Part shown: piece by piece, positions 3,765-51,647 of the stretch
Numbering within the stretch: the first letter of the stretch is position 1
Layout: each line of letters opens with the position of its first letter
Source: Minisyncoccota bacterium
GTDB lineage: Bacteria; Patescibacteriota; Minisyncoccia; Phycocordibacterales; Phycocordibacteraceae
Length of the DNA: 64,000 nucleotides
Assembly: GCA_035531495.1 (NCBI GenBank)
Contig: DATKSU010000017.1
Location: forward strand, 2,668-66,667
Direction: 5' to 3'
Made by a program: the position numbers and the translations under genes
The notes under the pieces: generated by a model
What the model saw: the letters and a program-made list of their open reading frames with translations, nothing else
The model's database searches: none
Told to the model about the DNA's origin: nothing

Positions 3765-3820
3765 GTATGCGATGTTGATTGCGCGGTCGCCAAGGGCGGC
3801 CGCGTGGTATTTTTATGTGA

Positions 3821-4357
3821 ATGAGCGCTCATTTCAGCGACCCGCGCGAGAATGTGCTCCAGCTCGGGCTGCGCGAGGGCATGAAGGTCGGCGATTTCGG
3901 CACTGGCACCGGCTATTACGCGCGCGCGGCGGCGGGCGTCGTCGGCACGAGCGGCCGCGTTTACGCCATCGACGTGCAGGAGGGCATCCTCAAGCACCTG
4001 AAGCTCAACTCGCACGAGCAGCACCTGCACGTCATCGAGACGGTCTGGGGCGACATCGAGAAGCTCGGCGGCACGCGGCTGCGCGACCGGTCGCTCGACG
4101 CCGTCATCCTCGCGAACACGCTCTTCCAGATTGAAAACCGCTTCGGCCTGCTCTCCGAGATAAAGCGGGTTCTGAAGCCGGGCGGCAAGCTTCTCGTCGT
4201 CGACTGGGCCGGCAGCTACGGCGGCATGGGCCCGGCGCAGGACAAGGTCGTGCCGGAGCACGAAGCGGAGGCCTTCTTCATCACCGGCGGCTTCCATAAG
4301 GCCAAGTCGTTCCGCGCCGGCCCGTATCATTACGGCATAATATTCACGTCGCCATGA
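3821..4357 (+). CDS. class I SAM-dependent methyltransferase
   Basis: Motif I VGDFGTGTGYYA and a post-II LKPGGKLLVVDW motif are present. TGgTATTTT lies 7 nt upstream of the ATG. The gene overlaps the next gene by ATGA. Confidence 0.8.
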   Translation: MSAHFSDPRENVLQLGLREGMKVGDFGTGTGYYARAAAGVVGTSGRVYAIDVQEGILKHLKLNSHEQHLHVIETVWGDIEKLGGTRLRDRSLDAVILANTLFQIENRFGLLSEIKRVLKPGGKLLVVDWAGSYGGMGPAQDKVVPEHEAEAFFITGGFHKAKSFRAGPYHYGIIFTSP

Positions 4358-5664
4358 AAGTATCCCTCTTCCAAGGCATCCTCATCGGCGTTTTCGCTCT
4401 CGGCGCCCTCATCGGCTTGTTCGTCTTCTCGAACTACACGAGCAAGAATACGGGCAATACCGGCGTCGGCACGGTCGTCATCTGGGGCACCCTGCCCGGA
4501 AGCGCGATGAAGGCGGCGCTCGCTGACGTCGTGAAGAAAGACACTTCGCTCAAGAGCGTCTCCTACGTGCAGAAGGACGAAGCGACGCTGCCGTCGGACC
4601 TCGCGGCCGCCATCGCGACGGGCGCCGCGCCCGATCTCGTGCTCGCGTCGCAGGAGAATCTCGAGTCGCTCGCGAAGTTCCTCACCCCCATCCCGCTGTC
4701 GACGCTTTCGGCAAACACGTTCCAGAATTCGTTCGTCAGGGAAGGGCAGATCTTCACGGTGCCGAACGGCGGCGGCTTCTACGGTGTCCCGCTCCTCGTC
4801 GACCCGCTCGTGCTCTTCTCGAATCCGACCATCCTCTCGTCCGACGGAATCGTGAAGCCGCCCGCCACCTGGGAAGCGCTCACGGGCCTCGTGCCGAACG
4901 TCGCCGTGCTCACGCCGACGAAGCAGATAACGCGAGGCCTCGTCGCGCTCGGCACCTATGACAACGTGCACGACGCGCGCGGCATTCTCTCGACGCTCTT
5001 CTTCCAGACGGGCGTGCCCGTCGCGAGCTATTCGCTGGGCGGCATCCTCTCGGCTGACCTCGGCGCGAGCGCGTCCGCCGGCGTGCCGCCCGGCCAGGCG
5101 GTGCTGAATTTCTATACGCAGTTCGCCGACCCCTCGAAGGTCTCCTACACCTGGAACGGTTCCTTGCCGGATTCCGAGCAGGCATTCCTCGCGGGCGATC
5201 TCGCGCTCTACCTCGGCTACGCGTCGGAGGCGCAGTACTTCTCGACCGCGAATCCGAACCTCGCCTTCGAGGTCACGCCCGTGCCGGAGCCCGCGGCGGC
5301 GACGGCGAAGACGGCATACGGCCTCATCTATGCGCTCATGATTCCGCGCGGGGCGAAGAACGTCTCGGGCGCTTACCTGGCGGCGACGGCGCTCGCCGGC
5401 GCACCGGCGCAGTCCGCGCTCGCGAGCGATACCGGCCTCGCGCCCGCAACGCTCACTAACCTCGCGGCGGCGCCTCCCGATCCCACCGCGGCCGTCGCGT
5501 ATAGCGAGGCGCTGTATGCGGCGGGCTGGCTGTCCCCAGCACCGGCCGACACGGATAGCGTATTTTCCGCTATGATTGGGAACGTGATAAGCGGCCGCTC
5601 GACGCTCACCACCGCACTCTCGACCGCGCAGAGCTCGCTCAGCGCGCTCCTGCAGCAACAATGA
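4354..5664 (+). CDS. membrane-anchored extracellular solute-binding-protein-like protein (SBP family 1-like)
   Basis: N-terminal TM helix then a domain with SBP_bac_1-like segments (VVIWGTLP…, KPPATWEAL). Start codon overlaps the methyltransferase stop; stop codon overlaps the first pilin-like gene. No permease or ATPase partner is present in the window. Confidence 0.5.
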   Translation: MKVSLFQGILIGVFALGALIGLFVFSNYTSKNTGNTGVGTVVIWGTLPGSAMKAALADVVKKDTSLKSVSYVQKDEATLPSDLAAAIATGAAPDLVLASQENLESLAKFLTPIPLSTLSANTFQNSFVREGQIFTVPNGGGFYGVPLLVDPLVLFSNPTILSSDGIVKPPATWEALTGLVPNVAVLTPTKQITRGLVALGTYDNVHDARGILSTLFFQTGVPVASYSLGGILSADLGASASAGVPPGQAVLNFYTQFADPSKVSYTWNGSLPDSEQAFLAGDLALYLGYASEAQYFSTANPNLAFEVTPVPEPAAATAKTAYGLIYALMIPRGAKNVSGAYLAATALAGAPAQSALASDTGLAPATLTNLAAAPPDPTAAVAYSEALYAAGWLSPAPADTDSVFSAMIGNVISGRSTLTTALSTAQSSLSALLQQQ

Positions 5665-6215
5665 CCAGAACGCTCGCGTCAACGCTCTTCGCCCTTGCGC
5701 TCTTCACCCTTGCGCCGATTGCGGCGTCGGCGCAAGGCACGGATTGCAACATCCTGGTCCAGGGGGCTTCGTGCGTCACGTCTTCAGGCGCTTCCGGCAC
5801 GTGCCAGCCGACGGGCGGCAATTACGGCAACATGACGTGCCAGGGAGGCGCGCAACAATCAACGACGGGGACAAATACCGGAGGCGCGCAATCGACGGCC
5901 GGGACGAATACGGGCGGTCCGAGCGTGACGCTCACCAATCCGCTCAACACCGGCAGCAACTGCTCCGCGACGAACACCTGCTTGAACGTCTTCCTTATGG
6001 ACATCCTGCAGCTCGTCATCCGCATCGGCGCTGTCGTCGTCGTCGTCATGCTCGTCTACGTCGGCTTCCTCTTCGTGACGGCGCAGGGGAATGAATCGAA
6101 GCTCAGTAGAGCGAAACAAGCGCTCCTCTGGACCATCGTCGGCGCGCTCATCCTGCTCGGCGCCGAAGCCATCGCACAGGGCATCCAGGCGACGGTCCAA
6201 GCGCTCTCCGTATGA
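5661..6215 (+). CDS. TrbC/VirB2-type (T4SS) pilin-like protein, paralog 1, with N-terminal Cys/Gly/Thr-rich extension
   Basis: Signal peptide present. C-terminal two-helix hairpin motif …VMLVYVGFLFVTAQGNESK…ALLWTIVGALILLGAEAI… is shared with the five downstream paralogs. Confidence 0.5.
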   Translation: MTRTLASTLFALALFTLAPIAASAQGTDCNILVQGASCVTSSGASGTCQPTGGNYGNMTCQGGAQQSTTGTNTGGAQSTAGTNTGGPSVTLTNPLNTGSNCSATNTCLNVFLMDILQLVIRIGAVVVVVMLVYVGFLFVTAQGNESKLSRAKQALLWTIVGALILLGAEAIAQGIQATVQALSV

Positions 6216-6475
6216 CGTTCGCCCAGTTCGTCGGCAGCGGCTCGACCGGCATCATTGGCGCCATCAATACGGTCATCGTCCCGCTCATCTTCGGCCTCGC
6301 GTTCGCTTATTTCATCTGGGGCGTCGTCAAGTACTTCTTTATCAACGGCGGCGATGAACGGAGCCGGATCGAGGGGCGGCAATTCGTACTGTGGGGCGTC
6401 CTCGCGATGGCGCTCATCTTCTCGATATGGGGCGTCCTGAATATCCTGTTATCCACGCTCGGCATCGCGCCGTAG
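6212..6475 (+). CDS. TrbC/VirB2-type pilin-like small membrane protein, paralog 2
   Basis: 87 aa. Motif …VPLIFGLAFAYFIWGVVKYF..NGGDE…QFVLWGVLAMALIFSIWGVLN. ATGA overlap with paralog 1. Confidence 0.5.
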   Translation: MTFAQFVGSGSTGIIGAINTVIVPLIFGLAFAYFIWGVVKYFFINGGDERSRIEGRQFVLWGVLAMALIFSIWGVLNILLSTLGIAP

Positions 6476-6506
6476 CGATAACGTGTCATACTGACTAAGC
6501 GGCACT

Positions 6507-6836
6507 ATGAACTTCAGCATCGGATTCGGCGTCGGCGGCGGTTCCGTATGTACGGTCGGCATCTGCCAAGTCGCGAACACCATCCTCTACCTCATCAACG
6601 GCGTGTTCGTCCCCGTCCTTTTCGCGGTGGCGTTCATCGTCTTCCTCTACGGCGTCGCGAAGGCTTATATCTTCTCAGGCGGCGATCCGGGCGAGGTCGA
6701 GAAAGGGCACAAGCTCATCTTGTGGGGTATCATCGCCTTCGTCGTCATGATCTCGCTCTGGGGCCTCGTGAACGTCGTCGCGAATACCTTCGGCCTTGCG
6801 GGGTATTCGGCGCCGCCGATGCCGACATCGTATTAG
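6507..6836 (+). CDS. TrbC/VirB2-type pilin-like small membrane protein, paralog 3
   Basis: 109 aa. Motif …VPVLFAVAFIVFLYGVAKAYIFSGGD…LILWGIIAFVVMISLWGLVNV. Confidence 0.5.
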   Translation: MNFSIGFGVGGGSVCTVGICQVANTILYLINGVFVPVLFAVAFIVFLYGVAKAYIFSGGDPGEVEKGHKLILWGIIAFVVMISLWGLVNVVANTFGLAGYSAPPMPTSY

Positions 6837-6849
6837 AACGACCCTCCCT

Positions 6850-7281
6850 ATGAACAAACTCTCCCTTGCTGGTCCCGATCTTCGCACGCTCGCGCTCAGC
6901 GTCATCTCGTTTCTCGCTGCTGCGCCGGTTGCATTCGCCCAAGTACCGGCGAATACCACCAATACGGGCGCGGGCAGCGTCAACCTGGTATGGCTGCAGT
7001 ACTACCGGGACACCATCGTCTGGGTTATCAACTCGGTCATCGTCCCGGTCCTAATTGCAGTGGCGTTCATCGTCTTCCTCTACGGAGTCTATAAATATTT
7101 CATCCAGGGGGCAGCGAGCGATACCGAGCGGGAGACGGGCCGGAAATTCGTCATGTGGGGCGTGATCGGCATGGTCATCATCGTATCCTTCTGGGGCGTC
7201 GTCAACATCGTCAAGGATACGCTCATCCCCTCGACCGCGAACAACACCGCCCCCGCATACCCGACGCTGCCGACCCAGTAA
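6850..7281 (+). CDS. TrbC/VirB2-type pilin-like protein, paralog 4
   Basis: The ATG at 6850 (MNKLSLAG…) gives a clean signal peptide; the track start at 6796 is an upstream extension. Motif …VPVLIAVAFIVFLYGVYKYFIQG…KFVMWGVIGMVIIVSFWGVVNIV. Confidence 0.5.
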   Translation: MNKLSLAGPDLRTLALSVISFLAAAPVAFAQVPANTTNTGAGSVNLVWLQYYRDTIVWVINSVIVPVLIAVAFIVFLYGVYKYFIQGAASDTERETGRKFVMWGVIGMVIIVSFWGVVNIVKDTLIPSTANNTAPAYPTLPTQ

Positions 7282-7373
7282 GGCCGCCAGGGATTATCCC
7301 CACACGGGCTCGAATGGCGTTGACCGGGCTTGCGGGGAAGCTAGAATAGTACTGTTATCCAATTAACGTCTGT

Positions 7374-7742
7374 ATGAAAAAAGCAATCACTCTTACGGGG
7401 GCGCTCGCGGTGTTCGCACTGCCGCTCGTCTCGTTCGCGCAGGTGAACAACCTCTCGGATGTCGGTTCCCTCATCATCAACATCATCAATAACATCCTCG
7501 TCCCGGTCATCTTCGCGGTGGCGTTCATCGTCTTCCTCTGGGGCGCATTCGACACCTTCATCCTCGGCGCGACGAATGATACGGCGAAGGAGAAGGGCAA
7601 GAGCCTCATGCTCTGGGGCCTCATCGGCTTCTTCGTAATGGTGTCGGTCTGGGGCCTCGTGAACATCCTCACCGGTACGATCACCTTCGGCAACAACACC
7701 GGCCCGTCGAGCGTTCCGACCTCCGGCACGACCGTCCAGTAG
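7374..7742 (+). CDS. TrbC/VirB2-type pilin-like protein, paralog 5
   Basis: Signal peptide MKKAITLTGALAVFALPLVSFAQ. Motif …VPVIFAVAFIVFLWGAFDTFILG…SLMLWGLIGFFVMVSVWGLVNIL. Confidence 0.5.
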   Translation: MKKAITLTGALAVFALPLVSFAQVNNLSDVGSLIINIINNILVPVIFAVAFIVFLWGAFDTFILGATNDTAKEKGKSLMLWGLIGFFVMVSVWGLVNILTGTITFGNNTGPSSVPTSGTTVQ

Positions 7743-7754
7743 CCCTCGCGCTAC

Positions 7755-8042
7755 ATGTCCGTCCTCAACGCCTTTCTCTCGAAGGTCACTGTTCAGATCA
7801 TCAATCCGCTCATCCTGCTCCTGGCCGCCGGCGCGTTCGTCGCCTTCTTGTGGGGAGCGTTTGAGTTCATCCGCAACGGCGGCGACGAGAAGAAGCGTGC
7901 GGATGGGCAGCGAGCAATCCTGTGGGGCATCGTCGGGCTCGTCATTATCTTCGGCGCGTACGGTATCATCAATGTCGCCATGAACACCTTCAACCTCCAG
8001 CCGAACGGGCAGTCGACCATCCAACAGGTCGTCTCCCCATAA
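7755..8042 (+). CDS. TrbC/VirB2-type pilin-like small membrane protein, paralog 6
   Basis: 95 aa. Motif …AGAFVAFLWGAFEFIRNGGDEKK…AILWGIVGLVIIFGAYGIINV. Confidence 0.5.
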   Translation: MSVLNAFLSKVTVQIINPLILLLAAGAFVAFLWGAFEFIRNGGDEKKRADGQRAILWGIVGLVIIFGAYGIINVAMNTFNLQPNGQSTIQQVVSP

Positions 8043-8077: not shown

Positions 8078-8100
8078 GAGGCCGCGCATCGCGCGGCCTC
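8078..8100. terminator. bidirectional terminator hairpin between convergent genes
   Basis: Hairpin gaggccgcgcatcgcgcggcctc lies between the + strand pilin array and the - strand gene ending at 8123. Confidence 0.5.
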
Positions 8101-8122: not shown

Positions 8123-8935
8123 TTACTGAGCATAGGCGTATGACACGACATTCGGGTCAGCCTTTCTCATGTTCGTCACGTACACGTACGGCATGTCGCC
8201 GCTCGGACAGGGGTTCCCCCCTATCACAAACGAGGACTCGTGCCCGTCTCGGTAGACGCAGTGTATACGGACATCTTCTCCATCGAACGTTACTCTCATC
8301 TGTTGCGGCACAGGGATGTTCGCCGACCTGCCTCCCCGGGGGAGCATGACTTTCGGCCATGAATCCACGGATTGGCTCGTGAGCGGGATGCTTGCCTTCG
8401 GTGCGTATGCCGCGCTCGGCGCTTTTCCGGATAACAGCCACGAGAGGGCCGGCAGCACGAAGAGCATCGCAAGCACCACCCACACTGCTACCCATTGGTG
8501 CTGCTTCATACGCTCTTGCCACTTCGGGATTAGCAAACCGATGACCCCGAGCGAAGCAACGAGCGTCGCTAATATTAGCCCGACGGCAGCCCAGTGCTTC
8601 CACCACAGGGAGCTTATCGCGGCCATGGTCGGGGGATTTTTTATATAGACCCCGCTCCAGTACCACCCCTCTCCGAGGATGATGGCGAGCAGCACCACCA
8701 AGCCCATTTTTTCCCAAGTGAAGGTCTCCTTGAGCTTCTCGAGGATTTTCTTTGGTTCGTCTCTCGGGCTTGTCGTCGCGGTGACGGTACGCTGCCCCTT
8801 CTCGGGGTTCTTGGCATTCATCTCCGCCTGAACGTTCGCGAGCCGCGTCGAGTGCGGCTGCCTGATACGCAGTACCACAAGAATACCGAGCACGAACAGC
8901 ACGAACGATGCAACGGGAATGATAACGACCATCAT
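8123..8935 (-). CDS. polytopic membrane protein with C-terminal extracytoplasmic domain, co-transcribed with the SPFH protein
   Basis: About four hydrophobic helices and a Cys-containing C-terminal domain. Its start overlaps the SPFH stop (ATGA), so the position suggests an NfeD-like partner. No sequence motif confirms this. Confidence 0.45.
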   Translation of the reverse strand: MMVVIIPVASFVLFVLGILVVLRIRQPHSTRLANVQAEMNAKNPEKGQRTVTATTSPRDEPKKILEKLKETFTWEKMGLVVLLAIILGEGWYWSGVYIKNPPTMAAISSLWWKHWAAVGLILATLVASLGVIGLLIPKWQERMKQHQWVAVWVVLAMLFVLPALSWLLSGKAPSAAYAPKASIPLTSQSVDSWPKVMLPRGGRSANIPVPQQMRVTFDGEDVRIHCVYRDGHESSFVIGGNPCPSGDMPYVYVTNMRKADPNVVSYAYAQ

Positions 8936-10224
8936 ACGGAACCTCCATCAGATTGGCTTGCGGCTGGTTTATTCGGAGCGACCGGCAGCGTAGGCACGAG
9001 CGGCTGGGGTGCTCCCCAGACGATCGTATTGCCGGGACCTCTTGACGACTCTTGCATCGCGTCATACTGCGCGAGTCGGATACCGACTTCACCGACTGCA
9101 CTGATGACGCTGAGTCTCCTCTCGAGGGATTTGGCTTCGGCTTCTCCCGTCATCTCAATGACATCGGCTTTCGCTTTCCCCGTGGTACGCGTGGCAATCG
9201 CTTCCTGCTCGGCAACATAGGCTTTCGTCGCCGCTTCCTGGTTCCTATCTTTCGCGTCGCCAGAAAGATCAATCTTTTGGAGATCGACGGTGCGGATTTC
9301 CACGCCATATCGTCCGAGAAGGCCGAACGGAGGCTTGGTATCCACATCGTCCGGGAGTCGGCTGCTAAGCGCGATAATCGGCGCCGAGTACTCGGTCAGA
9401 TCAACCGTGTCCGTACTTCCTCCCGCCGCCGCCCTCTTGGTCGACCGGATGATATCATTGTACTTCTGAGAGCCGATGAAGGCCCTCGAATTACGGTTGA
9501 TAGCAGCCGTGACGCGTACCATCCAATCCTCGCCGCTGAAAAGCGCGCGGTAGGGATTGCGGACGGCAACCGTCGCGAACGTCAAGACGGTTACTTGCAG
9601 GTTCTCCGACGTTTCTGCGTCCTGGGTGACGAAGACGTAGACAAAGTCCGAGACGTAGACGAGGTCAGTCGCTTCCGCGCGTGGGAAGACCGACTCCGCG
9701 CCGTTCTCGTCCGTGCGCGTCTCGTTCCACACGAACTGATAGACGTGGACTTTGACAGACCACGGCCAGCCAATCCAATAGATGCCGAGATATTTGAGCA
9801 GCCACGACCGCCTGTCGTAGTACGAGTCCTCCATCATCTCGCCCGTGAAGCCGTTCGTATTGCCCGGTCCGTGGAATAAGACTTCCCAATTCGCCTTATC
9901 GGGCTTGAACCCTGGCCCCATCGGGTCGTTCAGATGGAACCCCTCGAATGACATGAGGATCCGCTCGAACGAGTTCCCGCGCAGGATGATCTTCGCGGTA
10001 CCTTCCTTCACGGTGGTGAAGAGGATGGCTTCTTTCGCGAGCGACTTGATGAAGAAGAACAGGATGATACTGGCGAACACCGCGCCGTCAATCGTGATGA
10101 ACAGCCATTTCAGGATGGTTGCCACCAACGGATTGGACAGGCTCAGTATCATGATTATCGTGACAGACAAGATCACGACGACTGGTGCCGACAGATTGCG
10201 GCGCAATTTAGACAGCGGTGCCAT
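8932..10224 (-). CDS. SPFH/band-7 (flotillin-like) membrane protein
   Basis: N-terminal TM helix, an SPFH core, and a flotillin-like Ala/Glu-rich coiled-coil tail (…EAATKAYVAEQEAIATRTTGKAKADVIEMTGEAEAKSL…). Confidence 0.75.
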   Translation of the reverse strand: MAPLSKLRRNLSAPVVVILSVTIIMILSLSNPLVATILKWLFITIDGAVFASIILFFFIKSLAKEAILFTTVKEGTAKIILRGNSFERILMSFEGFHLNDPMGPGFKPDKANWEVLFHGPGNTNGFTGEMMEDSYYDRRSWLLKYLGIYWIGWPWSVKVHVYQFVWNETRTDENGAESVFPRAEATDLVYVSDFVYVFVTQDAETSENLQVTVLTFATVAVRNPYRALFSGEDWMVRVTAAINRNSRAFIGSQKYNDIIRSTKRAAAGGSTDTVDLTEYSAPIIALSSRLPDDVDTKPPFGLLGRYGVEIRTVDLQKIDLSGDAKDRNQEAATKAYVAEQEAIATRTTGKAKADVIEMTGEAEAKSLERRLSVISAVGEVGIRLAQYDAMQESSRGPGNTIVWGAPQPLVPTLPVAPNKPAASQSDGGSV

Positions 10225-19042: not shown

Positions 19043-20017
19043 ATGCGTTCTCGCATCCTCCTGCCCGCCCTCTTCCTCGTCGCGGCCGGCGCGTTCGTTC
19101 TGCCGAACGTCACGCACGCCGCCATCCCGTTCTTTGGACCCATCATCCCGGCCGGCAACGACACGTGCCCGGCGGGGTGGGGCATGTTCATGATCGTCAT
19201 CAACAACATCGTCGAGCTCCTCATCACGCTCGCCATCGTCTTCGTCGCGCCGCTCACGATCGCGTGGGCCGGGTTCCTCTATGTCGTCAATCCCGTCGAC
19301 CCGAGCGGCATGAGCCGCGCGAAGTCCATCCTCTGGAACACGGTCTTCGGCATCGTCATCGCGCTCGCCGCATGGCTCATCGTGGACGCCATCTTGGCGG
19401 CGCTGACCAACCAGGGGCTGACCTACTGGGCGAGCCTTGTCGGCAGCAACGGCACGCAGCCGTGCCTCTCGGTCGCGAGCTCGCTCCGGCAGGCCGCTCC
19501 GCCGACGACCACGGCCGGACTCGCGGTCGGGACGACGCCGACGGTGACGGGCGTCGGCGCGGGCGGCCAGCAGTACCTCTCGTTCGGCTCGGGCGCGTGC
19601 GTGGCGACGGCCGTGCAGCAGGGCGCGACCTCAGGCGGCTACAGCCTGACCGTCGCGCAATCGAATACGCTCGCCTGCATCGCGCAATTCGAGAGCACGT
19701 GCGGTTCGAACCTCAGGCCGAATCCGGCCTCAAGCGCCGCTGGCGCGTTCCAGGTCCTGCTGCAGCGAAACAGCGCGTGCTACAACAATGCGGCTTGCGA
19801 GCAGGCCGCCGGTCAGCCCGGCGTGCCGCTTAATTGCCAGAATGGATTCAGCGGCGGTCAATCGTTGAACAATGCCACTTCGCAGATGTGCTATGCCGCC
19901 GCAGCAAATCTCGCGTGCGCAGCGTCGGCGGCGGCCTGTCTCGTGCAAGCAAATCCGAACTTCAGCGATTGGGCGACGCCGAGCGACCAATCCTGCGTGC
20001 GCACCTACAACATCTGA
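19043..20017 (+). CDS. pilin-like N-terminal module fused to a Cys-rich C-terminal domain with lytic-transglycosylase-like motifs
   Basis: ATG at 19043 with TATGAT 6 nt upstream. Signal peptide present. The helix-loop-helix (…LITLAIVFVAPLTIAWAGFLYVVNPVD…SILWNTVFGIVIALAAWLIVDAIL…) resembles the 5661-8042 paralogs. The C-terminal 150 aa carries FESTCG, GAFQV and SACYNNAA in SLT order, plus 12 Cys. Confidence 0.45.
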   Translation: MRSRILLPALFLVAAGAFVLPNVTHAAIPFFGPIIPAGNDTCPAGWGMFMIVINNIVELLITLAIVFVAPLTIAWAGFLYVVNPVDPSGMSRAKSILWNTVFGIVIALAAWLIVDAILAALTNQGLTYWASLVGSNGTQPCLSVASSLRQAAPPTTTAGLAVGTTPTVTGVGAGGQQYLSFGSGACVATAVQQGATSGGYSLTVAQSNTLACIAQFESTCGSNLRPNPASSAAGAFQVLLQRNSACYNNAACEQAAGQPGVPLNCQNGFSGGQSLNNATSQMCYAAAANLACAASAAACLVQANPNFSDWATPSDQSCVRTYNI

Positions 20018-20034
20018 CGCGCTATGATGAACCT

Positions 20035-20631
20035 ATGATGCGGATACTGGCCATCGGTTCGCTCGCAGTCATCGTCGTCGCGGCGATCGCTTTCTACGTT
20101 CTCGCCCCGAAGCAACCGCAGCAGCAGGCGCCCGCCGGAAGCGGCGCGCCGGTAACGCTGCCGTCAGCCGGCGAGACGACAGTCACCGTCGGCAACTCGG
20201 GCGCCACATTTGCGCCGGGCGAACCGAACATGTCCCTCACTCTCGCGACGGGGAGCACCACCGTCGTCAAGGATTTCATAACGAGCAGCACGACCGGCAA
20301 AGACGTGCAGAACCCGGGCGTCTACTACCTGGCCGGGAGCGCCGGGTACTGCCTCGCGGACGGCACGTGCCCCCACGGCGCCGCCGTGAGCGATTTCATC
20401 ATCACCTACGACTCCTCGAGCGAATTCTTCACGATATCGCTCACAGAGGAGCCGCTCGCCACGGCGCGCGCGGACGCCGAGCAGTTCCTCGCGACGACGC
20501 TCGGCCTATCGGACATGCAGCTGTGCGATCTCAAGTACACGGTCCTGACGAACGAATCCGTGAACGCGTTCTTCGCCGGCAAGAATCTCGGTTTCAGCTC
20601 CTGTCCGGGCGCGACGGTGCTGCCGCAGTAG
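20035..20631 (+). CDS. hypothetical membrane-anchored secreted protein
   Basis: ATG at 20035 with TATGAT 6 nt upstream. N-terminal TM/signal anchor followed by a Thr/Ser-rich extracytoplasmic domain. Confidence 0.4.
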   Translation: MMRILAIGSLAVIVVAAIAFYVLAPKQPQQQAPAGSGAPVTLPSAGETTVTVGNSGATFAPGEPNMSLTLATGSTTVVKDFITSSTTGKDVQNPGVYYLAGSAGYCLADGTCPHGAAVSDFIITYDSSSEFFTISLTEEPLATARADAEQFLATTLGLSDMQLCDLKYTVLTNESVNAFFAGKNLGFSSCPGATVLPQ

Positions 20632-47659: not shown

Positions 47660-47995
47660 ATGAAGCTCTTCTTCCACTGGCTCATCGCCGCGATCGCCAT
47701 CGGCATCACGGCGTACATCGTGCCGGGCGTCTCGATAACGCTCGGCGGCGCGCTCATCGCCGCGGTCGTCCTCGGCGCCTTGAACATCTTCATCCGTCCG
47801 GTGCTCATGCTGCTCGCGTTGCCCATCAACATCCTCACGCTCGGGCTCTTCTCGCTTGTCATCAACGCGCTCCTCGTGATGCTCGCCGCGCTCCTCGTGC
47901 CGGGCTTCTCGATCGCCGGCTTCTGGACGGCGCTCCTCTTCGCGCTCGTCCTTGCCGTCATCAATTGGGTTTTCCACCTCTGGAGCCGCGCCTAG
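47660..47995 (+). CDS. phage-holin-4-like / DUF360-family small membrane protein
   Basis: 111 aa with three to four TM helices (MKLFFHWLIAAIAIGITAYIVPGV…). The family is widespread outside phages. Confidence 0.55.
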   Translation: MKLFFHWLIAAIAIGITAYIVPGVSITLGGALIAAVVLGALNIFIRPVLMLLALPINILTLGLFSLVINALLVMLAALLVPGFSIAGFWTALLFALVLAVINWVFHLWSRA

Positions 47996-47996
47996 C

Positions 47997-48209
47997 ATGA
48001 TCGATCCAGAACTCGCCGCGAAGCTCGACGAGATCAGCGCGAAAGCCGACGCCGCCTACCGCGCGGCGGAGACGTCGCGCAAGTATCTCTTCTGGACCGG
48101 CGTCGTGACTGTCGCCCTCATCATCCTGCCGCTCATCGGCCTCGTCTTCGTCATCCCGCAATTCGTGAATACTTACACGACGACCCTGAATGGTATCGGC
48201 GGCTCCTAG
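47997..48209 (+). CDS. hypothetical small membrane protein (70 aa)
   Basis: ATG two nucleotides after the preceding stop. Single TM helix. Confidence 0.3.
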   Translation: MIDPELAAKLDEISAKADAAYRAAETSRKYLFWTGVVTVALIILPLIGLVFVIPQFVNTYTTTLNGIGGS

Positions 48210-48820
48210 GCCCGGCGCCTCGCGCGGCGCGAGAAGACAATGGGGAGGAATGAGAGTACGACGATGACGAGCGAGAGCGGCAGCACGTAGTGCTCGCTGC
48301 CGGGCAGGATCGAGCCGAGGAAATAGCCGACTGCGAGGACGCCGGCGCCCCAGAGGGCGCCGCCGAGCGCGTTGTACGCGAGGAAGCGGCCGTAAGTCAT
48401 CGAGCCGGCGCCGGCGAGGATAGGCGCGATAGTGCGGACGATGGGCACGAAGCGTGCGAGCATGACCGTCCGCGCGCCGTATCGCTCGTAGAACTTTTCC
48501 GTACGTTCGATGTATTCCCGCTTGAAGAAGCGGGAATCTTTCTTATTGAAGAGGTTATCGCCCACGTTCGCGCCGAACCAATAGCCGACGGAATCGCCGA
48601 GGATGGCGCACAGGACGACGATGACGACGAGCGTCCCGAAGGAGAGGAAGCCGCCCGCGGCGAGGAGTCCGGCGACGAAGAGGAGGGAATCGCCCGGCAG
48701 GAGGATGCCGATGAGGAGCCCGCTCTCCGCAAAGATGATGCCGGCGATACCGAGGTAGCCGCCCGCCTTCACGATCGCGAGGGGGTCGAGATGTACGCAC
48801 GCGATGAGGAAATTCAGCAT
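48206..48820 (-). CDS. DedA-family membrane protein
   Basis: ATG at 48820 (MLNFLIACV…). DedA signature …GDSVGYWFG… and …RFVPIVRTIAPILAG…. The track ORF extends spuriously to 50158. Confidence 0.75.
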   Translation of the reverse strand: MLNFLIACVHLDPLAIVKAGGYLGIAGIIFAESGLLIGILLPGDSLLFVAGLLAAGGFLSFGTLVVIVVLCAILGDSVGYWFGANVGDNLFNKKDSRFFKREYIERTEKFYERYGARTVMLARFVPIVRTIAPILAGAGSMTYGRFLAYNALGGALWGAGVLAVGYFLGSILPGSEHYVLPLSLVIVVLSFLPIVFSRRARRRA

Positions 48821-48836: not shown

Positions 48837-48844
48837 AGATGGAA

Positions 48845-51643
48845 ATGGAATCGGCGCCGACATTGTCCACGCCTGAGGCGGAGCTCGCGTACCTGCGCGA
48901 ACAGGTCGCGCGCAAGGAGGCCGAACTCTCCGCCGCCGGCCGCGCGGACGCGGCTGCCGAGCGCCCGCGGCTCGTCGCCGAGGAGCTGCGCGCGCACCAA
49001 GCGGCGCCAGCCGAGATACTCGCGTCCGCGTACCGCATGAGCGCCACCGAGGCCGCGAGCGCCGCCGAGCGCATTCTCGCCGAACTCGACGTCGGCGACG
49101 AGGCGGACGCGATACGGCAGATACAGCAGGTGCTCGAGGAGAAGGGCATCAAGAACGCGCTCGCCGTGCTCGAGAAGCTCCAGAATCCGCGCATCGGCGA
49201 CGACCTGCACCGCTATCTCGTGCGCTACATCGCAGCCGGATTGCCAATGGCCGCCGGCGGCGAGAAGCTGCCGCAGTTCGCCGCGCTCCGCATGACGCTC
49301 TACGAGATCGCCTTGCCGGAACCGAAGGGCGCGGACGGCGGCGGGCGCGAGAAGTCGCTCAAGGAGCTCATCTCTGCGATGGAGCAGTTCTACGCGGGAC
49401 TCCTCTCGGTCGCCGAAGCGGCGCCCGGCGAGCCCGGCTACTACGCGCTCGAGCTTGCCGTTCCGGCGGAGAGCCCGGAGCTCCAGTTCTACGCGGCGAT
49501 TCCGAACGGCAAACGCAACCTCTTCGAGAAGCAGCTCCTCGCGATGTTTCCGGACGCGCATCTCGTCCCGCAGCCGCTCGATTACAACGTCTTCGCGGCT
49601 GGCGGCGCGTCGCTCGCGTCGGTCGCGCGGCTGGCGGCGAACCCGGCGCTCCCGCTCAAGGATTACGCCGATTTCGATTACGACCCCTTGAACGCCGTCA
49701 CGAACGCCTTCGCGAAGATCGAGCACGTCGGCGAAGGCGCCGCCATCCAGTTCATCATCGAGCCGCGCGGCGAGCGCCACGTCGAGCACTACCGGAAAGT
49801 CCTCCATGCGCTCCAGAAGGGTGAGACGGTCGCGCAGGCGCTCCGGACGCCCGGGACCGTGTTCGGCGAGCTCGCGCGCGACGTCGCGAAGACGTTCTTC
49901 TCGCGGACGCCGGACGAGAAAGGGAAGGAGAAAGCGAAGGAAGACGCAGCGCGTCGCGTCGAGGAGAACAAGCCGACCGCCGAACAGGTGGAGCGCAAGA
50001 TTTCCGCGCCCATCGTCGGTACGACCATCCGCCTCGTGACGTCGTCGAAAGACGCGACGAAGGCGGCGCAGGTGCTCGGCGAGCTTGAGGCGGCATTCAA
50101 CCAGTTCGCGAACACGCGGGGCAACCGGCTCGAGTTCGCGCGCATGACGCCCGGGCAAAAGGGCGCCGCGCGCGTCTTCGAGGACTTCTCGTTCCGCCTG
50201 CCGGAGGCCACCGGGCTGCCCTTATCCTTGCGCGAGCTCACGGCGCTCTACCACTTCCCGCCGTCGGGCGTCGCATCGTCGCCGCACCTGAAGCAGGCGC
50301 GCTTCACGCACGCGCCCGCGTCCCTCTCGCTCTCGAAGGAGGGCGCGCTCCTCGGGACGAATAGTTATCGCGGCCACGACACGGCGGTGTACCTTGACCC
50401 AGAGGACCGGCTGCGGCACCTCTACGTCGTCGGTCAGACGGGTACCGGCAAGACAGGTCTCATGAAGAACCTCATCATCCAGGACATCCGCCGCGGCGAA
50501 GGCTGCTGCTTCATCGATCCGCACGGTAATGACATCTTCGACATCCTCGCGGCCGTGCCGCCTGAGCGCTATGAGGACGTCATTTACTTCGATCCGGCTG
50601 ACCTCTCACGCCCATTCGGCCTCAATTTCCTCGAATACGAGCATTCGCGCCCCGAGCAGAAGACGTTCATCGTGAATGAGCTCCTCGCCATCTTCCGCCG
50701 CCTGTATGGTGACGTGCCGGAGAGCATGGGGCCAGCTTTCGAGCAATACTTCAGGAACGCGACCCTGCTCGTCATGGAAGATCCCTCATCGGGCTCGACC
50801 ATCCTCGATATCGCGCGTGTGCTCTCGAATGCGGAGTTCCGTGCGCTGAAGCTCGCGAAAAGCATGAACCCCATCGTGAACCAGTTCTGGACGGAGATAG
50901 CGACGAAGGCCGGCGGGGAAGCGGCGCTTGAGAACATTGTCCCGTACATCACGAACAAGTTCGACGACTTCACGGCGAACGACTTCATCCGACCCATCGT
51001 CGGGCAGCAGGAATCGTCGTTCAAGTTCCGCGACGTCATGGACAACCGCAAGATCCTCCTCGTGAACCTTTCGAAAGGGCGGCTCGGCGAGCGCAACGCG
51101 AACCTGCTCGGCCTCGTCGTCGTCGGCAAGCTCTTCATGGCCGCGCTCGCGCGCGCCGACAATCCGCGCGCGGCATATCCGCCGTTCTACCTCTACATCG
51201 ACGAATTCCAGAACGTCACGACCGATTCCGTCCCCGGCATCCTCTCCGAGGCGCGCAAATACAAGCTCGCGCTTTCGATGGCGCACCAGTTCCTCGCGCA
51301 GCTCGAGGAGAAGACGCGCGACGCCGTCTTCGGCAACGTCGGCAACATGACGATCTTCCGCGTGGGCGAGGAAGACGCCGAATTCTTCGCCAAGCAGTTC
51401 GCGCCAGTCTTCGGCGCGCCGGATTTCGTGAGCATCGAGAACAGGAGCGCCTATGTGAAGCTGCTCGCGCACGGCGTGCCGCAGAAGCCGTTCGATATCC
51501 GCACGCCGGACCTGCTGGCGGGCAATCCGGCGCAGGTTGACGAGCTTATCCAGCTTTCCGCGCTCACTTACGGCCGCGACCGTGCTACTGTGGAGACGAC
51601 GATCCGCGAACGCTACCTGGGCCGCGCGGCAGCTGCTATATGA
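48845..51643 (+). CDS. FtsK/HerA-superfamily P-loop ATPase, TraD/VirD4 (T4SS coupling protein)-like with TraD_C-like tail; no TM anchor
   Basis: Walker A VVGQTGTGKTG followed by CFIDPHGND, Walker B YLYIDEFQN, and C-terminal …ARKYKLALSMAHQFLAQL…. The N-terminal 480 aa are soluble and unassigned. Confidence 0.65.
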   Translation: MESAPTLSTPEAELAYLREQVARKEAELSAAGRADAAAERPRLVAEELRAHQAAPAEILASAYRMSATEAASAAERILAELDVGDEADAIRQIQQVLEEKGIKNALAVLEKLQNPRIGDDLHRYLVRYIAAGLPMAAGGEKLPQFAALRMTLYEIALPEPKGADGGGREKSLKELISAMEQFYAGLLSVAEAAPGEPGYYALELAVPAESPELQFYAAIPNGKRNLFEKQLLAMFPDAHLVPQPLDYNVFAAGGASLASVARLAANPALPLKDYADFDYDPLNAVTNAFAKIEHVGEGAAIQFIIEPRGERHVEHYRKVLHALQKGETVAQALRTPGTVFGELARDVAKTFFSRTPDEKGKEKAKEDAARRVEENKPTAEQVERKISAPIVGTTIRLVTSSKDATKAAQVLGELEAAFNQFANTRGNRLEFARMTPGQKGAARVFEDFSFRLPEATGLPLSLRELTALYHFPPSGVASSPHLKQARFTHAPASLSLSKEGALLGTNSYRGHDTAVYLDPEDRLRHLYVVGQTGTGKTGLMKNLIIQDIRRGEGCCFIDPHGNDIFDILAAVPPERYEDVIYFDPADLSRPFGLNFLEYEHSRPEQKTFIVNELLAIFRRLYGDVPESMGPAFEQYFRNATLLVMEDPSSGSTILDIARVLSNAEFRALKLAKSMNPIVNQFWTEIATKAGGEAALENIVPYITNKFDDFTANDFIRPIVGQQESSFKFRDVMDNRKILLVNLSKGRLGERNANLLGLVVVGKLFMAALARADNPRAAYPPFYLYIDEFQNVTTDSVPGILSEARKYKLALSMAHQFLAQLEEKTRDAVFGNVGNMTIFRVGEEDAEFFAKQFAPVFGAPDFVSIENRSAYVKLLAHGVPQKPFDIRTPDLLAGNPAQVDELIQLSALTYGRDRATVETTIRERYLGRAAAAI

Positions 51644-51647
51644 ACAT

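What the first reader, a model, noticed from the sequence alone, without database searches (positions are those of the whole stretch)
5661..8042. Operon of six tandem paralogous TrbC/VirB2-like pilin genes with no other T4SS parts nearby
Six consecutive small genes (87-184 aa) share one architecture. Each has a signal-like N-terminus and a first helix ending in …AFIVFL(W/Y)G…. A short loop with GGD/NGG follows, then a second helix …(I/L)(L/M)LWG(L/I)…WG(L/V)(L/V)N…. This two-helix hairpin is how TrbC/VirB2 conjugative pilins are built, and is reminiscent of the T4SS-pilin family described from CPR/Patescibacteria genomes. Several genes overlap by ATGA, and the array is co-transcribed with a SAM methyltransferase and a TM-anchored solute-binding-like protein. 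No VirB4, VirB6 or VirB8-11 homolog lies within 10 kb. The only T4SS-like ATPase is 40 kb away at 48845, and a seventh pilin-like module is fused to an SLT-like domain at 19043. That points to an unconventional, dispersed pilus or secretion apparatus, or to a distinct surface filament.
Basis: partly seen in the sequence, partly recalled or inferred. Interest (0 to 1): 0.7.

Follow-up and report, generated by a model that had tools for sequence, protein, structure and literature searches.

The report
Six-gene VirB2-like pilin operon, Paceibacteria
Six neighbouring small genes in this ultrasmall (Patescibacteria) bacterium belong to a known family of pilin-like membrane proteins, but here they sit in a conserved operon with an orphan sugar-type binding protein and a methyltransferase, away from any secretion machinery.

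Summary
Six consecutive + strand genes (5661-8042) all score above the Pfam gathering threshold for PF18895 (T4SS_pilin). The window is chromosomal DNA of a Kaiserbacteria-like Candidatus Paceibacterota MAG. No VirB4, VirB6, VirB3 or VirB8 homologue was found among the ~57 ORFs Pfam-scanned across the 64 kb. The distant ATPase is an orphan coupling-protein-like (VirD4/TraD) enzyme. The seventh pilin module is fused to a lysozyme/SLT-like domain.

Most of this is already published for Patescibacteria: arrays of 2-11 VirB2-like pilins, six essential ones in Southlakia, and pilin and T4CP genes often far from virB4 (PMC12102498, PMC10633639).

Three points go beyond those papers:
- The methyltransferase-SBP-pilin module is present in all 45 assessable loci recovered from species-representative genomes, down to 25% SBP identity. 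No ABC permease or T4SS ATPase lies nearby.
- The six paralogues have positional orthologues in a fixed order. Five are 60-81% identical to them, against 20-47% between paralogues. This argues for non-redundant subunits rather than antigenic variation.
- A footprinted internal promoter precedes the best-conserved paralogue, p5.

Whether these proteins build a pilus at all remains untested. The array itself is a known kind; the SBP-coupled operon is a modest new variant.

The parts
3773..3820 (+). Conserved 5' control element of the operon: invariant TGTTGATTG, a covarying GC hairpin (3778-3808), then TGGTATTTT ending 7 nt before the MTase ATG. It is read as a composite of terminator or insulator and extended -10, which would give a leaderless start.
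   Evidence: Terminator-like call at 3778-3808. The same element lies at the same distance from the MTase ATG in 19 related loci. In the predicted hairpin, 4 of 8 pairs show compensatory double changes. The function is inferred.
3821..4357 (+). Class I SAM-dependent methyltransferase (178 aa), first gene of the operon. Its stop overlaps the SBP start (ATGA).
   Evidence: Methyltransf_11 at 64.7 bits. Overlap confirmed. Found immediately upstream of the SBP in about 41 of 47 related loci. It is 77-78% identical to orthologues in L006 and L007.
4354..5664 (+). Membrane-anchored orphan solute-binding protein (436 aa, family 1 / MalE-like). Its stop overlaps the p1 start (ATGA).
   Evidence: SBP_bac_8 at 70.2 bits. 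Distant PDB relatives are maltose- or sugar-binding proteins, E about 1e-4. Followed directly by pilin genes in 45 of 45 assessable loci. No polytopic permease nearby in 22 loci checked.
5661..6215 (+). Pilin paralogue p1 (184 aa): signal peptide, Cys-rich knob, Gly/Thr/Ser-rich linker, then a divergent hairpin. Candidate minor or adhesive subunit.
   Evidence: PF18895 at 30.5 bits and TrbC at 23.1 bits, the latter below threshold. Its positional orthologue is 61-67% identical. It is the first pilin of the array in every close relative (SBP >= 52% identity) and in most, though not all, of the more distant loci.
6212..6475 (+). Pilin paralogue p2 (87 aa), no signal peptide.
   Evidence: PF18895 at 27.6 bits. 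Orthologues are 60-68% identical.
6507..6836 (+). Pilin paralogue p3 (109 aa), no signal peptide.
   Evidence: PF18895 at 36.4 bits. Orthologues are 62-73% identical.
6850..7281 (+). Pilin paralogue p4 (143 aa from the ATG), with a signal peptide. It is the least conserved position of the array.
   Evidence: PF18895 at 28.8 bits. Gene callers on identical contigs use the 143-aa start. Orthologues are only 45-50% identical.
7294..7347 (+). Internal promoter in the p4-p5 gap: TTGACC-16 nt-TAGAAT (7320-7347), preceded by a conserved (T)TATCC(CC)ACA motif (7294-7304).
   Evidence: 10 of 12 consensus matches. TTGACC-N16-TACAAT lies upstream of the p5 ATG, with a variable spacer, in 17 of 18 related loci, at -54 in 14 of them and between -50 and -68 in the other three.
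7374..7742 (+). Pilin paralogue p5 (122 aa), with a signal peptide. It is the best conserved and has its own promoter, so it is the candidate major subunit.
   Evidence: PF18895 at 36.0 bits. There are 1256 homologues, and the top 120 clusters are 70-83% identical. The AF2 model shows a signal-peptide helix plus a hairpin at H27-64 and H69-102, with pLDDT 84-92.
7755..8042 (+). Pilin paralogue p6 (95 aa), no signal peptide. Last gene of the operon.
   Evidence: PF18895 at 35.9 bits. Orthologues are 69% identical.
8078..8100 (.). Perfect GC palindrome between the convergent p6 and the - strand gene at 8123-8935. It marks the end of the operon.
   Evidence: Terminator-like call on the - strand. 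Sequence read. A T-run is present only on the - strand, so termination of the + strand transcript is inferred.
19043..20017 (+). Seventh pilin-like module (residues ~46-122) fused to a Cys-rich lysozyme/SLT-like C-terminal domain (324 aa). Possible VirB1-like cell-wall hydrolase.
48839..51643 (+). Orphan T4SS coupling-protein-like ATPase (934 aa) with a ~500-residue soluble N-terminal region. Not VirB4.
   Evidence: TraG-D_C at 28 bits and DUF87 at 24.5 bits. Sub-threshold hits to TraD and to the VirD4-like CD1115 NCBIfam models. TrwB is the only PDB sequence hit. Its neighbours are a DedA-like gene and a protein of unknown function.

Best explanation
This is a conserved chromosomal operon of a Kaiserbacteria-like Paceibacterota bacterium. 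It encodes a cytoplasmic SAM methyltransferase, a membrane-anchored orphan sugar-type solute-binding protein, and six ancient, non-redundant paralogues of the Patescibacteria VirB2-like pilin family (PF18895).

Shown:
- Each paralogue is a ~70-residue two-helix membrane hairpin with a short charged loop.
- Three of the six have cleavable signal peptides.
- The order p1 to p6 and the identity of each paralogue are kept across related genomes.
- p5 is the most conserved and has its own footprinted promoter.

Inferred:
- The hairpins are inserted with both termini outside the cell.
- They are then assembled as a heteromeric surface filament or conduit, with p5 as the major subunit and p1, with its Cys-rich knob, as a minor or tip subunit.
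- Assembly is done by the Patescibacteria-type (MPF-FATA-like) VirB4/VirB6 machinery encoded elsewhere in the genome.
- The structure serves the epibiotic lifestyle through host contact and/or transfer.
- The co-translated SBP is a surface partner that captures a ligand or binds host glycan.
- The methyltransferase may modify a component of the system.
For: - All six genes exceed the PF18895 gathering score. The same family makes up the six essential pilin genes inside the Southlakia T4SS cluster (PMC10633639).
- Positional orthologues of p1, p2, p3, p5 and p6 are 60-81% identical; p4 reaches only 45-50%. Paralogues are 20-47% identical to each other. The fixed order p1-p6 is found in the ~18 loci that carry a complete array among relatives with SBP >= 62% identity.
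- The internal promoter is conserved in 17 of 18 loci.
- ATGA couplings link MTase to SBP, SBP to p1, and p1 to p2.
- The MTase-SBP-pilin module is present in 45 of 45 assessable loci.
- VirB4 occurs in 2417 of 3035 Patescibacteria genomes, and pilin genes are often unlinked to it. A T4SS elsewhere in this genome is therefore plausible.
Against: - No VirB4 or VirB6 was seen, because only 64 kb of the genome is available.
- No PF18895 protein has been shown to form a pilus.
- Homology to bona fide VirB2/TrbC is not demonstrable here: PF04956 is below threshold, hhalign gives 0.2%, and Foldseek finds no pilin.
- A helical hairpin is a generic fold.
- The invariable SBP linkage and the complete lack of T4SS ATPases within 10 kb in 47 loci are not predicted by a pure T4SS-pilus model.
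- The gyrA...infB...clpB neighbourhood is itself syntenic across these genomes. Part of the module's conservation may therefore be passive.
Confidence: 0.55

Rival explanations
1. The hairpins form a T4SS-independent, SBP-coupled membrane assembly. In this reading the six hairpin proteins build a hetero-oligomeric ring or pore in the cytoplasmic membrane. That pore works with the orphan binding protein as a non-ABC uptake or sensing device, and 'pilin' is a misnomer for this subfamily.
For: - The SBP is directly followed by 2-7 pilin-profile ORFs in 45 of 45 assessable loci, down to 25% SBP identity.
- The SBP and p1 are translationally coupled.
- No ABC permease-like polytopic protein was found in 22 loci, and no T4CP-like ATPase within 10 kb in any locus.
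- Many family members are single polypeptides with 2-7 tandem hairpins, that is, polytopic membrane proteins (P0380, P0437, P0487).
- Six two-TM subunits give 12 TM helices. This last point is only an inference.
Against: - The same Pfam family lies inside the T4SS cluster of Southlakia next to VirB6, and is essential there.
- Signal peptides, exposed Pro/Thr-rich tails and a Cys-rich knob on p1 suggest surface display.
- Regional synteny can explain part of the linkage.
- No precedent is known for SBP-dependent transport through two-TM hairpin oligomers.
Confidence: 0.22
2. The six genes are a redundant pilin repertoire for antigenic or host-range variation. This is the explanation proposed in the literature for Patescibacteria arrays, by analogy with Bartonella and Anaplasma VirB2 paralogues.
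For: - Paralogues within the array are only 20-47% identical, similar to the 25% average reported.
- p4 is more variable than the others between genomes.
- The exposed C-terminal tails differ between paralogues.
Against: - Each paralogue has a positional orthologue in a fixed order in the ~18 complete arrays from close relatives. Five of the six are 60-81% identical to theirs, at or near the range of the neighbouring MTase (77-78%) and SBP (66-68%). This indicates purifying selection on distinct roles.
- Presence or absence of a signal peptide and the domain architecture differ systematically between positions.
Confidence: 0.1
3. The neighbourhood is coincidental. The pilin-like genes, SBP and methyltransferase are functionally unrelated genes held together only by the strong synteny of the gyrA-infB-clpB region in reduced genomes.
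For: GyrA, IF2, RbfA, the class V aminotransferase and ClpB are found around the module in many loci, down to ~31-34% SBP identity.
Against: - Intervening genes (SPFH, the 270-aa membrane protein, the class IV aminotransferase) come and go, while MTase-SBP-pilins stay contiguous.
- Stop and start codons overlap.
- In L052 the module is flanked by GroES and NusA rather than GyrA, yet it is intact.
- A conserved 5' element travels with the MTase gene while upstream sequence differs.
Confidence: 0.13

Closest known systems
Pilin gene array of the Southlakia epibionticum (Saccharimonadia) T4SS locus, SEML1_0014-0019 (Wang et al. 2023, PMC10633639)
   Same: Both have six consecutive, sequence-divergent PF18895 genes in a monoderm Patescibacteria chromosome, with sizes of about 90-190 aa. 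Some members in each also give weak TrbC/VirB2 hits.
   Different: In Southlakia the array sits inside the T4SS cluster next to VirB6, PrgI and VirB4, and is experimentally essential. Here it is in an operon with a methyltransferase and an orphan SBP. No T4SS core gene was found among the ORFs scanned in 64 kb. No SBP is listed in the Southlakia T4SS locus.
VirB2-like pilin arrays surveyed across Patescibacteria (Quinonero-Coronel et al. 2025, PMC12102498)
   Same: The survey reports arrays of 2-11 tandem pilin genes with low identity between copies (average 25%). It also reports pilin and T4CP genes frequently unlinked to virB4.
   Different: [quoted passage not shown] It does not mention an SBP or a methyltransferase partner. 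Here the class is Paceibacteria, and the paralogues are orthologously fixed in order and sequence.
TrbC/VirB2/TraA conjugative pilins of diderm T4SS (PF04956; Agrobacterium VirB2, F TraA)
   Same: Both are small proteins with a signal peptide (in 3 of 6 here), two hydrophobic helices joined by a short basic loop, and both termini predicted to lie outside.
   Different: No significant sequence relation was found: PF04956 is below threshold and hhalign to VirB2 gives 0.2% probability. There is no adjacent VirB1, VirB3 or VirB4 as in the virB operon. The organism is a monoderm. Multiple heterologous subunits replace one major pilin.
Mbov_0395 family pilin-like conjugal transfer protein of Mycoplasma ICEs (NCBIfam NF045849)
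   Same: This is the only NCBIfam model hit by p5 (32.7 bits, full length 1-80 of 80) and by p1. It also comes from a monoderm, MPF-FATA-type system, in line with the proposed ancestry of the Patescibacteria T4SS.
   Different: The score is below the curated cut-off of 40. The Mycoplasma protein is ICE-borne and single-copy (the latter from my own knowledge, not tested). The genes here are chromosomal core genes.
SBP-dependent ABC importers (MalE/MalFGK2 type)
   Same: The SBP belongs to family 1 / SBP_bac_8. Its nearest solved relatives are maltose- or sugar-binding proteins.
   Different: No permease or ABC ATPase lies in the operon or within 10 kb in related loci. Pilin-like hairpin genes occupy the downstream genes instead.

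Membership tests
PF18895 T4SS_pilin (Patescibacteria VirB2-like pilins) | Score at or above the Pfam gathering threshold (26.6 bits) | tested here: met
   p1 30.5, p2 27.6, p3 36.4, p4 28.8, p5 36.0 and p6 35.9 bits. The same calls are precomputed for identical contigs.
PF18895 T4SS_pilin (Patescibacteria VirB2-like pilins) | A ~70-residue hairpin of two hydrophobic helices with a short polar or charged loop | tested here: met
   AF2 model of p5: H27-64 and H69-102, with block pLDDT of 84-92. The core is alignable in all six.
PF18895 T4SS_pilin (Patescibacteria VirB2-like pilins) | Encoded within or next to a VirB4/VirB6 T4SS cluster (typical but not universal) | tested here: not met
   No VirB4, VirB6, PrgI or VirB8 domain was found in any Pfam-scanned ORF of the 64 kb window. 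The literature shows only 1135 of 1948 assemblies have the pilin near virB4, so this does not exclude membership.
PF18895 T4SS_pilin (Patescibacteria VirB2-like pilins) | Polymerises into an extracellular pilus | not testable with these tools
   No experimental structure of any family member was found in the PDB by sequence. Pilus formation is described as only a 'potential' in the 2025 review.
PF04956 TrbC/VirB2 conjugative pilins | Score at or above the Pfam gathering threshold (27.9 bits) | tested here: not met
   The best score is p1 at 23.1 bits. p5 scores 19.1, p6 16.2 and p4 11.4.
PF04956 TrbC/VirB2 conjugative pilins | Detectable profile similarity to a bona fide VirB2 | tested here: not met
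   hhalign of A1 and A2 against Agrobacterium fabrum C58 VirB2 (L058:44614-44976) gives 0.2% probability and E 0.35. The template was a single sequence, so sensitivity is low.
PF04956 TrbC/VirB2 conjugative pilins | Structural match to solved T4SS pilins | tested here: inconclusive
NF045849 Mbov_0395 pilin-like conjugal transfer protein | Score at or above the NCBIfam cut-off (40 bits) | tested here: not met
   p5 scores 32.7 bits over the full model. p1 scores 17.3 bits.
SBP-dependent ABC importer | The SBP gene is accompanied by permease and ATPase genes | tested here: not met
   SBP_bac_8 is present. No polytopic permease-like ORF lies within the flanks of 22 related loci, and none was found among the window ORFs scanned.
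T4SS coupling protein (VirD4/TraD/TrwB) - for the ATPase at 48839 | P-loop NTPase with TraG-D_C/TrwB-type domains, and an N-terminal membrane anchor | tested here: inconclusive
   TraG-D_C scores 28.0 bits (above the gathering score of 22) and TrwB_AAD_bind 20.9 (gathering score 20.5). NCBIfam TraD and CD1115 hits are far below their cut-offs. No N-terminal TM helix is evident in the sequence.
Lysozyme-like / SLT (VirB1-like) - for the C-terminal domain of the 19043 protein | SLT or lysozyme fold with a catalytic Glu-Ser motif | tested here: inconclusive

The most novel reading that the evidence does not exclude
In Paceibacteria the VirB2-like hairpin proteins may not be accessories of a conjugation-type T4SS. 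They may instead be the membrane or filament component of an SBP-coupled acquisition device. An orphan MalE-like binding protein would capture a host-derived glycan or sugar and hand it to a heteromeric assembly of five or six distinct hairpin subunits. In some lineages these subunits are covalently fused into 2-7-module polypeptides. This would be a new class of SBP-dependent uptake or host-tapping system, and it would give the enigmatic Patescibacteria 'pilins' a nutritional role.
Probability: 0.18. Interest if true: 0.8.

Novelty: new variant of a known kind. Interest (0 to 1): 0.42.

Why it matters
Patescibacteria make up a large share of bacterial diversity and live off other microbes. 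Their T4SS-like genes and pilin arrays are essential in the one species tested, yet their function is described as completely unknown (PMC11665869).

This locus adds little to the catalogue of pilin arrays. It does give three concrete handles:
- The array in Paceibacteria is an ancient set of fixed, non-interchangeable subunits. This argues against the antigenic-variation explanation.
- One subunit, p5, is singled out by conservation and by its own promoter as the likely major component.
- The array is consistently co-encoded with an orphan sugar-type binding protein and a small methyltransferase rather than with secretion ATPases. This points to a testable link between the 'pilins' and ligand capture or host-surface recognition.

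If the SBP link is functional, it would shift thinking about these proteins from secretion or conjugation toward acquisition.

Tried and rejected
- **Fold search of the p5 model.** Foldseek against the PDB returned only generic helical hairpins at E > 1. This is uninformative for a 70-residue hairpin and does not count against the pilin reading.
- **PDB sequence search with the pilin profile.** It returned only a chance FliL hit.
- **tblastn of p1 against 72,556 plasmids.** No match, so no link to plasmid-borne TrbC/VirB2.
- **hhalign against Agrobacterium VirB2.** No similarity.
- **A second pilin next to the ATPase.** The 85-aa ORF at 47952-48209 scored only E 0.05 with the local profile. 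It is a single-TM protein, so it was rejected.
- **DnaA-box reading of the TATCCACA motif upstream of p5.** The window has 5 near-matches against 3.1 expected by chance. There is no oriC-like cluster and the motif's meaning is left open.
- **Presence of VirB4/VirB6 elsewhere in this genome or in the complete relative OY969413.1.** I could not determine this.
- **RP4 record for TrbC.** Attempted, but not in the collection.

Full report
**1. What is in the sequence**

The region 3821-8042 carries eight tightly packed + strand genes. They have the high GC3 and low GC2 signature of real coding sequence in this 64% GC genome. In order they are:
- a 178-aa class I SAM methyltransferase (Methyltransf_11, 64.7 bits);
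- a 436-aa protein with an N-terminal TM helix and an SBP_bac_8 domain (70.2 bits);
- six small proteins: p1 5661-6215, p2 6212-6475, p3 6507-6836, p4 6850-7281, p5 7374-7742 and p6 7755-8042.

All six small proteins score above the gathering threshold of PF18895 'T4SS_pilin', with 27.6-36.4 bits against 26.6. TrbC/VirB2 (PF04956) is hit only below threshold, best by p1 at 23.1 bits.

The six align over a ~75-residue core of two hydrophobic helices and a short charged loop. A profile of that core finds them, and only them, strongly in a six-frame scan of the window. It also finds a weak seventh match in the ORF at 19043.

MTase/SBP, SBP/p1 and p1/p2 overlap by ATGA. The remaining gaps are 12-31 nt, except for 92 nt before p5.

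Only p1, p4 and p5 have signal peptides. p1 lacks the WG motifs and carries a Cys-rich, Gly/Thr-rich N-terminal extension.

**2. Whose genome, and what else is in the window**

p5 and the SBP are 100% identical to proteins of a 'MAG TPA Candidatus Paceibacterota bacterium'. Relatives are named Kaiserbacteria, Minisyncoccia or Paceibacterota.

The window is ordinary chromosome. It carries GyrA, IF2, ClpB, ParB, RelA/SpoT, TopA, DprA, SerRS, DnaX, TGT, UvrABC, Ddl and eight tRNAs.

Pfam scans of the ~57 ORFs that passed a GC3 coding filter found no VirB4, VirB6/TrbL, PrgI/VirB3 or VirB8.

The 934-aa ATPase at 48839 has TraG-D_C, DUF87 and TrwB-type hits. Its NCBIfam hits are all to coupling proteins (TraD, VirD4-like CD1115). 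It is therefore T4CP-like, not VirB4. It sits between a DedA-like gene and a 773-aa protein without known domains.

**3. What is already known**

Quinonero-Coronel et al. 2025 (PMC12102498) searched 3,035 Patescibacteria genomes with PF04956 and PF18895. They report:
- VirB2-like pilins in 1,948 VirB4-containing assemblies, near virB4 in only 1,135 of them;
- 441 arrays of 2-11 pilin genes, with a mean identity of 25% between copies;
- 5,713 VirD4-like T4CPs, of which only 148 lie near virB4.

Wang et al. 2023 (PMC10633639) showed that six PF18895 genes (SEML1_0014-0019) inside the Southlakia T4SS cluster are essential.

[quoted passage not shown] The function is described as completely unknown.

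That covers both the tandem array of CPR-type pilins and the dispersed T4SS-related genes. None of these papers mentions a solute-binding protein or methyltransferase partner.

**4. What the comparative data add**

*The operon is conserved.* One scan of species-representative genomes with the SBP returned 47 loci, from 72% down to 25% SBP identity. They include Kaiserbacteria, Nomurabacteria, Moraniibacteria and unclassified Parcubacteria.
- In all 45 loci with downstream DNA, the SBP is followed directly, on the same strand, by 2-7 ORFs matching the pilin profile.
- The methyltransferase lies immediately upstream in about 41 loci.
- No T4CP-like ATPase lies within 10 kb in any locus.
- No polytopic permease-like ORF lies in the flanks of 22 loci checked.
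- In the low-GC Moraniibacteria locus L052 the same module is readable: MTase, lipoprotein SBP, a two-module pilin, a pilin, then a Cys-rich-extended pilin. There it sits between GroES and NusA.

One caveat applies. The wider gyrA...infB...clpB neighbourhood is also syntenic in many of these genomes, so part of the conservation may be passive. Against a purely passive explanation:
- intervening genes vary while the module stays contiguous;
- start and stop codons overlap;
- a conserved 5' element travels with the MTase gene.

*The paralogues are fixed.* In two relatives compared in detail, the positional orthologues are far closer than the paralogues:

| Paralogue or gene | Identity to positional orthologue |
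|---|---|
| p1 | 61-67% |
| p2 | 60-68% |
| p3 | 62-73% |
| p4 | 45-50% |
| p5 | 75-76% |
| p6 | 69% |
| SBP | 66% |
| MTase | 78% |
| Between paralogues | 20-47% |

Among the 23 relatives with at least 62% SBP identity, about 18 carry a complete six-gene array, and every ORF in it classifies to its positional counterpart in the order p1 to p6. The exceptions are truncated contigs and two loci where position 4 classifies ambiguously. A more distant group (SBP 42-48%) has five-gene arrays that keep p1, p2, p5 and p6.

This is the signature of ancient subfunctionalised subunits. It does not fit a rapidly diversifying repertoire.

*p5 is singled out.* p5 has more than 1,250 homologues, and the top 120 clusters are 70-83% identical.

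A sigma-70-type promoter (TTGACC-16-TAGAAT, 7320-7347) lies in the only sizeable gap of the array. The same TTGACC-N16-TACAAT, with a variable spacer, occurs upstream of the p5 ATG in 17 of 18 related loci. It sits at -54 in 14 of them and between -50 and -68 in the other three. I infer that p5, with p6, is expressed more highly and is the major subunit.

*The family is very large and includes fusions.* A profile of the six finds 18,900 50%-identity cluster representatives at E <= 1e-3. Many have 2-7 hairpin modules in one polypeptide, for example P0380 with a signal peptide and seven modules.

**5. Structure and family tests**

AlphaFold2 predicts p5 as a signal-peptide helix followed by a long helical hairpin (H27-64, H69-102) with pLDDT 84-92.

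Fold and sequence searches against solved structures are uninformative for such a small hairpin.

hhalign against Agrobacterium VirB2, fetched from pTiC58, shows no similarity.

The only other curated model touched is the Mycoplasma ICE 'Mbov_0395 pilin-like conjugal transfer protein'. It scores 32.7 bits against a cut-off of 40. This weakly echoes the proposed MPF-FATA ancestry of the Patescibacteria system.

Membership in PF18895 is therefore established, while membership in TrbC/VirB2 proper is not. The word 'pilin' for PF18895 remains an inference from fold and from the Saccharimonadia gene context.

**6. Most likely mechanism**

I favour, at about 0.55, a heteromeric surface filament or conduit built from six distinct VirB2-like hairpins. 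p5 would be the major subunit and p1 a knob-bearing minor subunit. Assembly would be by a Patescibacteria-type VirB4/VirB6 machine encoded outside the window. The SBP would act as a co-expressed surface partner.

- Shown: family membership, hairpin fold, operon structure, orthology and promoter conservation.
- Inferred: topology, assembly by a T4SS, subunit roles, and the functions of the SBP and the methyltransferase.

The main rival, at about 0.22, is a T4SS-independent, SBP-coupled membrane assembly. It is suggested by the invariable SBP linkage, the absence of permeases and T4SS ATPases nearby, and the multi-hairpin fusion proteins.

Antigenic variation (about 0.10) is disfavoured by the orthology data. 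Mere synteny (about 0.13) is disfavoured by the translational coupling and by the persistence of the module in changed contexts.

**7. Verdict**

The 'dispersed, unconventional apparatus' reading is largely the known state of affairs in Patescibacteria.

The increment is the conserved MTase-SBP-pilin operon of Paceibacteria, with fixed paralogues and an internal promoter. I rate this a new variant of a known kind, with moderate interest.

Noticed in passing
window 7294-7347 (p4-p5 intergenic gap): A phylogenetically footprinted internal promoter (TTGACC-N16-TA(G/C)AAT) lies upstream of the p5 ATG in 17 of 18 related loci, at -54 in 14 of them. About 20 nt upstream of the -35 element is a conserved (T)TATCCACA motif identical to the DnaA-box consensus; the window has TTATCCCCACA. 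The window as a whole is not enriched for DnaA boxes (5 near-matches against 3.1 expected).
   Followed up: partly
window 3773-3820, upstream of the methyltransferase gene: An invariant TGTTGATTG is followed by a GC hairpin with compensatory changes (4 of 8 pairs), then TG(G/C)TATTTT ending 6-7 nt before the ATG. This is conserved in 19 related loci while the sequence further upstream differs. It looks like a terminator or insulator fused to an extended -10 element, which would imply a leaderless mRNA for the first gene of the operon.
   Followed up: partly
proteins P0380 (606 aa), P0437 (555 aa), P0487 (455 aa), P0361, P0364; also L052:11310-11963: Many members of the pilin family are single polypeptides with 2-7 tandem hairpin modules joined by short Pro/Thr/Ser linkers behind one signal peptide. 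Such covalent 'poly-pilins' are not mentioned in the passages of the Patescibacteria T4SS papers I searched. They bear on whether the family forms filaments or membrane rings.
   Followed up: partly
window 19043-20017 and 20035-20631: The pilin-hairpin/lysozyme-like fusion protein is followed, after 17 nt, by a ~198-aa TM-anchored protein with no Pfam hit. The pair, followed by miaA on the opposite strand and then a peroxiredoxin gene, is conserved in related genomes (L056, L057). No T4SS genes lie nearby. NCBI annotates several orthologues simply as 'pilin'.
   Followed up: partly
window 48839-51643 and 51645-53966: The orphan T4CP-like ATPase has a ~500-residue soluble N-terminal region with no TM anchor. 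It is followed by a 773-aa Pro/Ala/His-rich protein with two central TM helices and no Pfam or NCBIfam hit. A DedA-like gene lies divergently upstream (about 48206-48800, - strand).
   Followed up: no
window 5736-5960 (mature N-terminus of p1); A_p1 and B_p1 in L006 and L007; L052:12515-13063: One pilin per array carries an N-terminal Cys-rich knob (C-x(6-9)-C-x(3-9)-G-x-C-type spacing), followed by a Gly/Thr/Ser-rich linker ahead of the hairpin. The feature persists even in the distant Moraniibacteria locus, where it sits on the last rather than the first pilin.
   Followed up: no
window 7374-7742 (p5) and 5661-6215 (p1): The only NCBIfam model touched by the pilins is NF045849, the Mbov_0395 pilin-like conjugal transfer protein of Mycoplasma ICEs (32.7 bits against a cut-off of 40). 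This hints that pilin-like hairpins may also exist in other monoderm MPF-FATA-type systems, which are usually said to lack VirB2.
   Followed up: no
window 8123-10224 (- strand): Two genes run convergent to the array: a 270-aa multi-TM protein without a Pfam hit, and a 430-aa SPFH/Band 7 protein. The pair is present in some relatives (L001, L007, L013, L016) and replaced by other genes elsewhere (L005, L006). It is therefore not part of the conserved module.
   Followed up: partly
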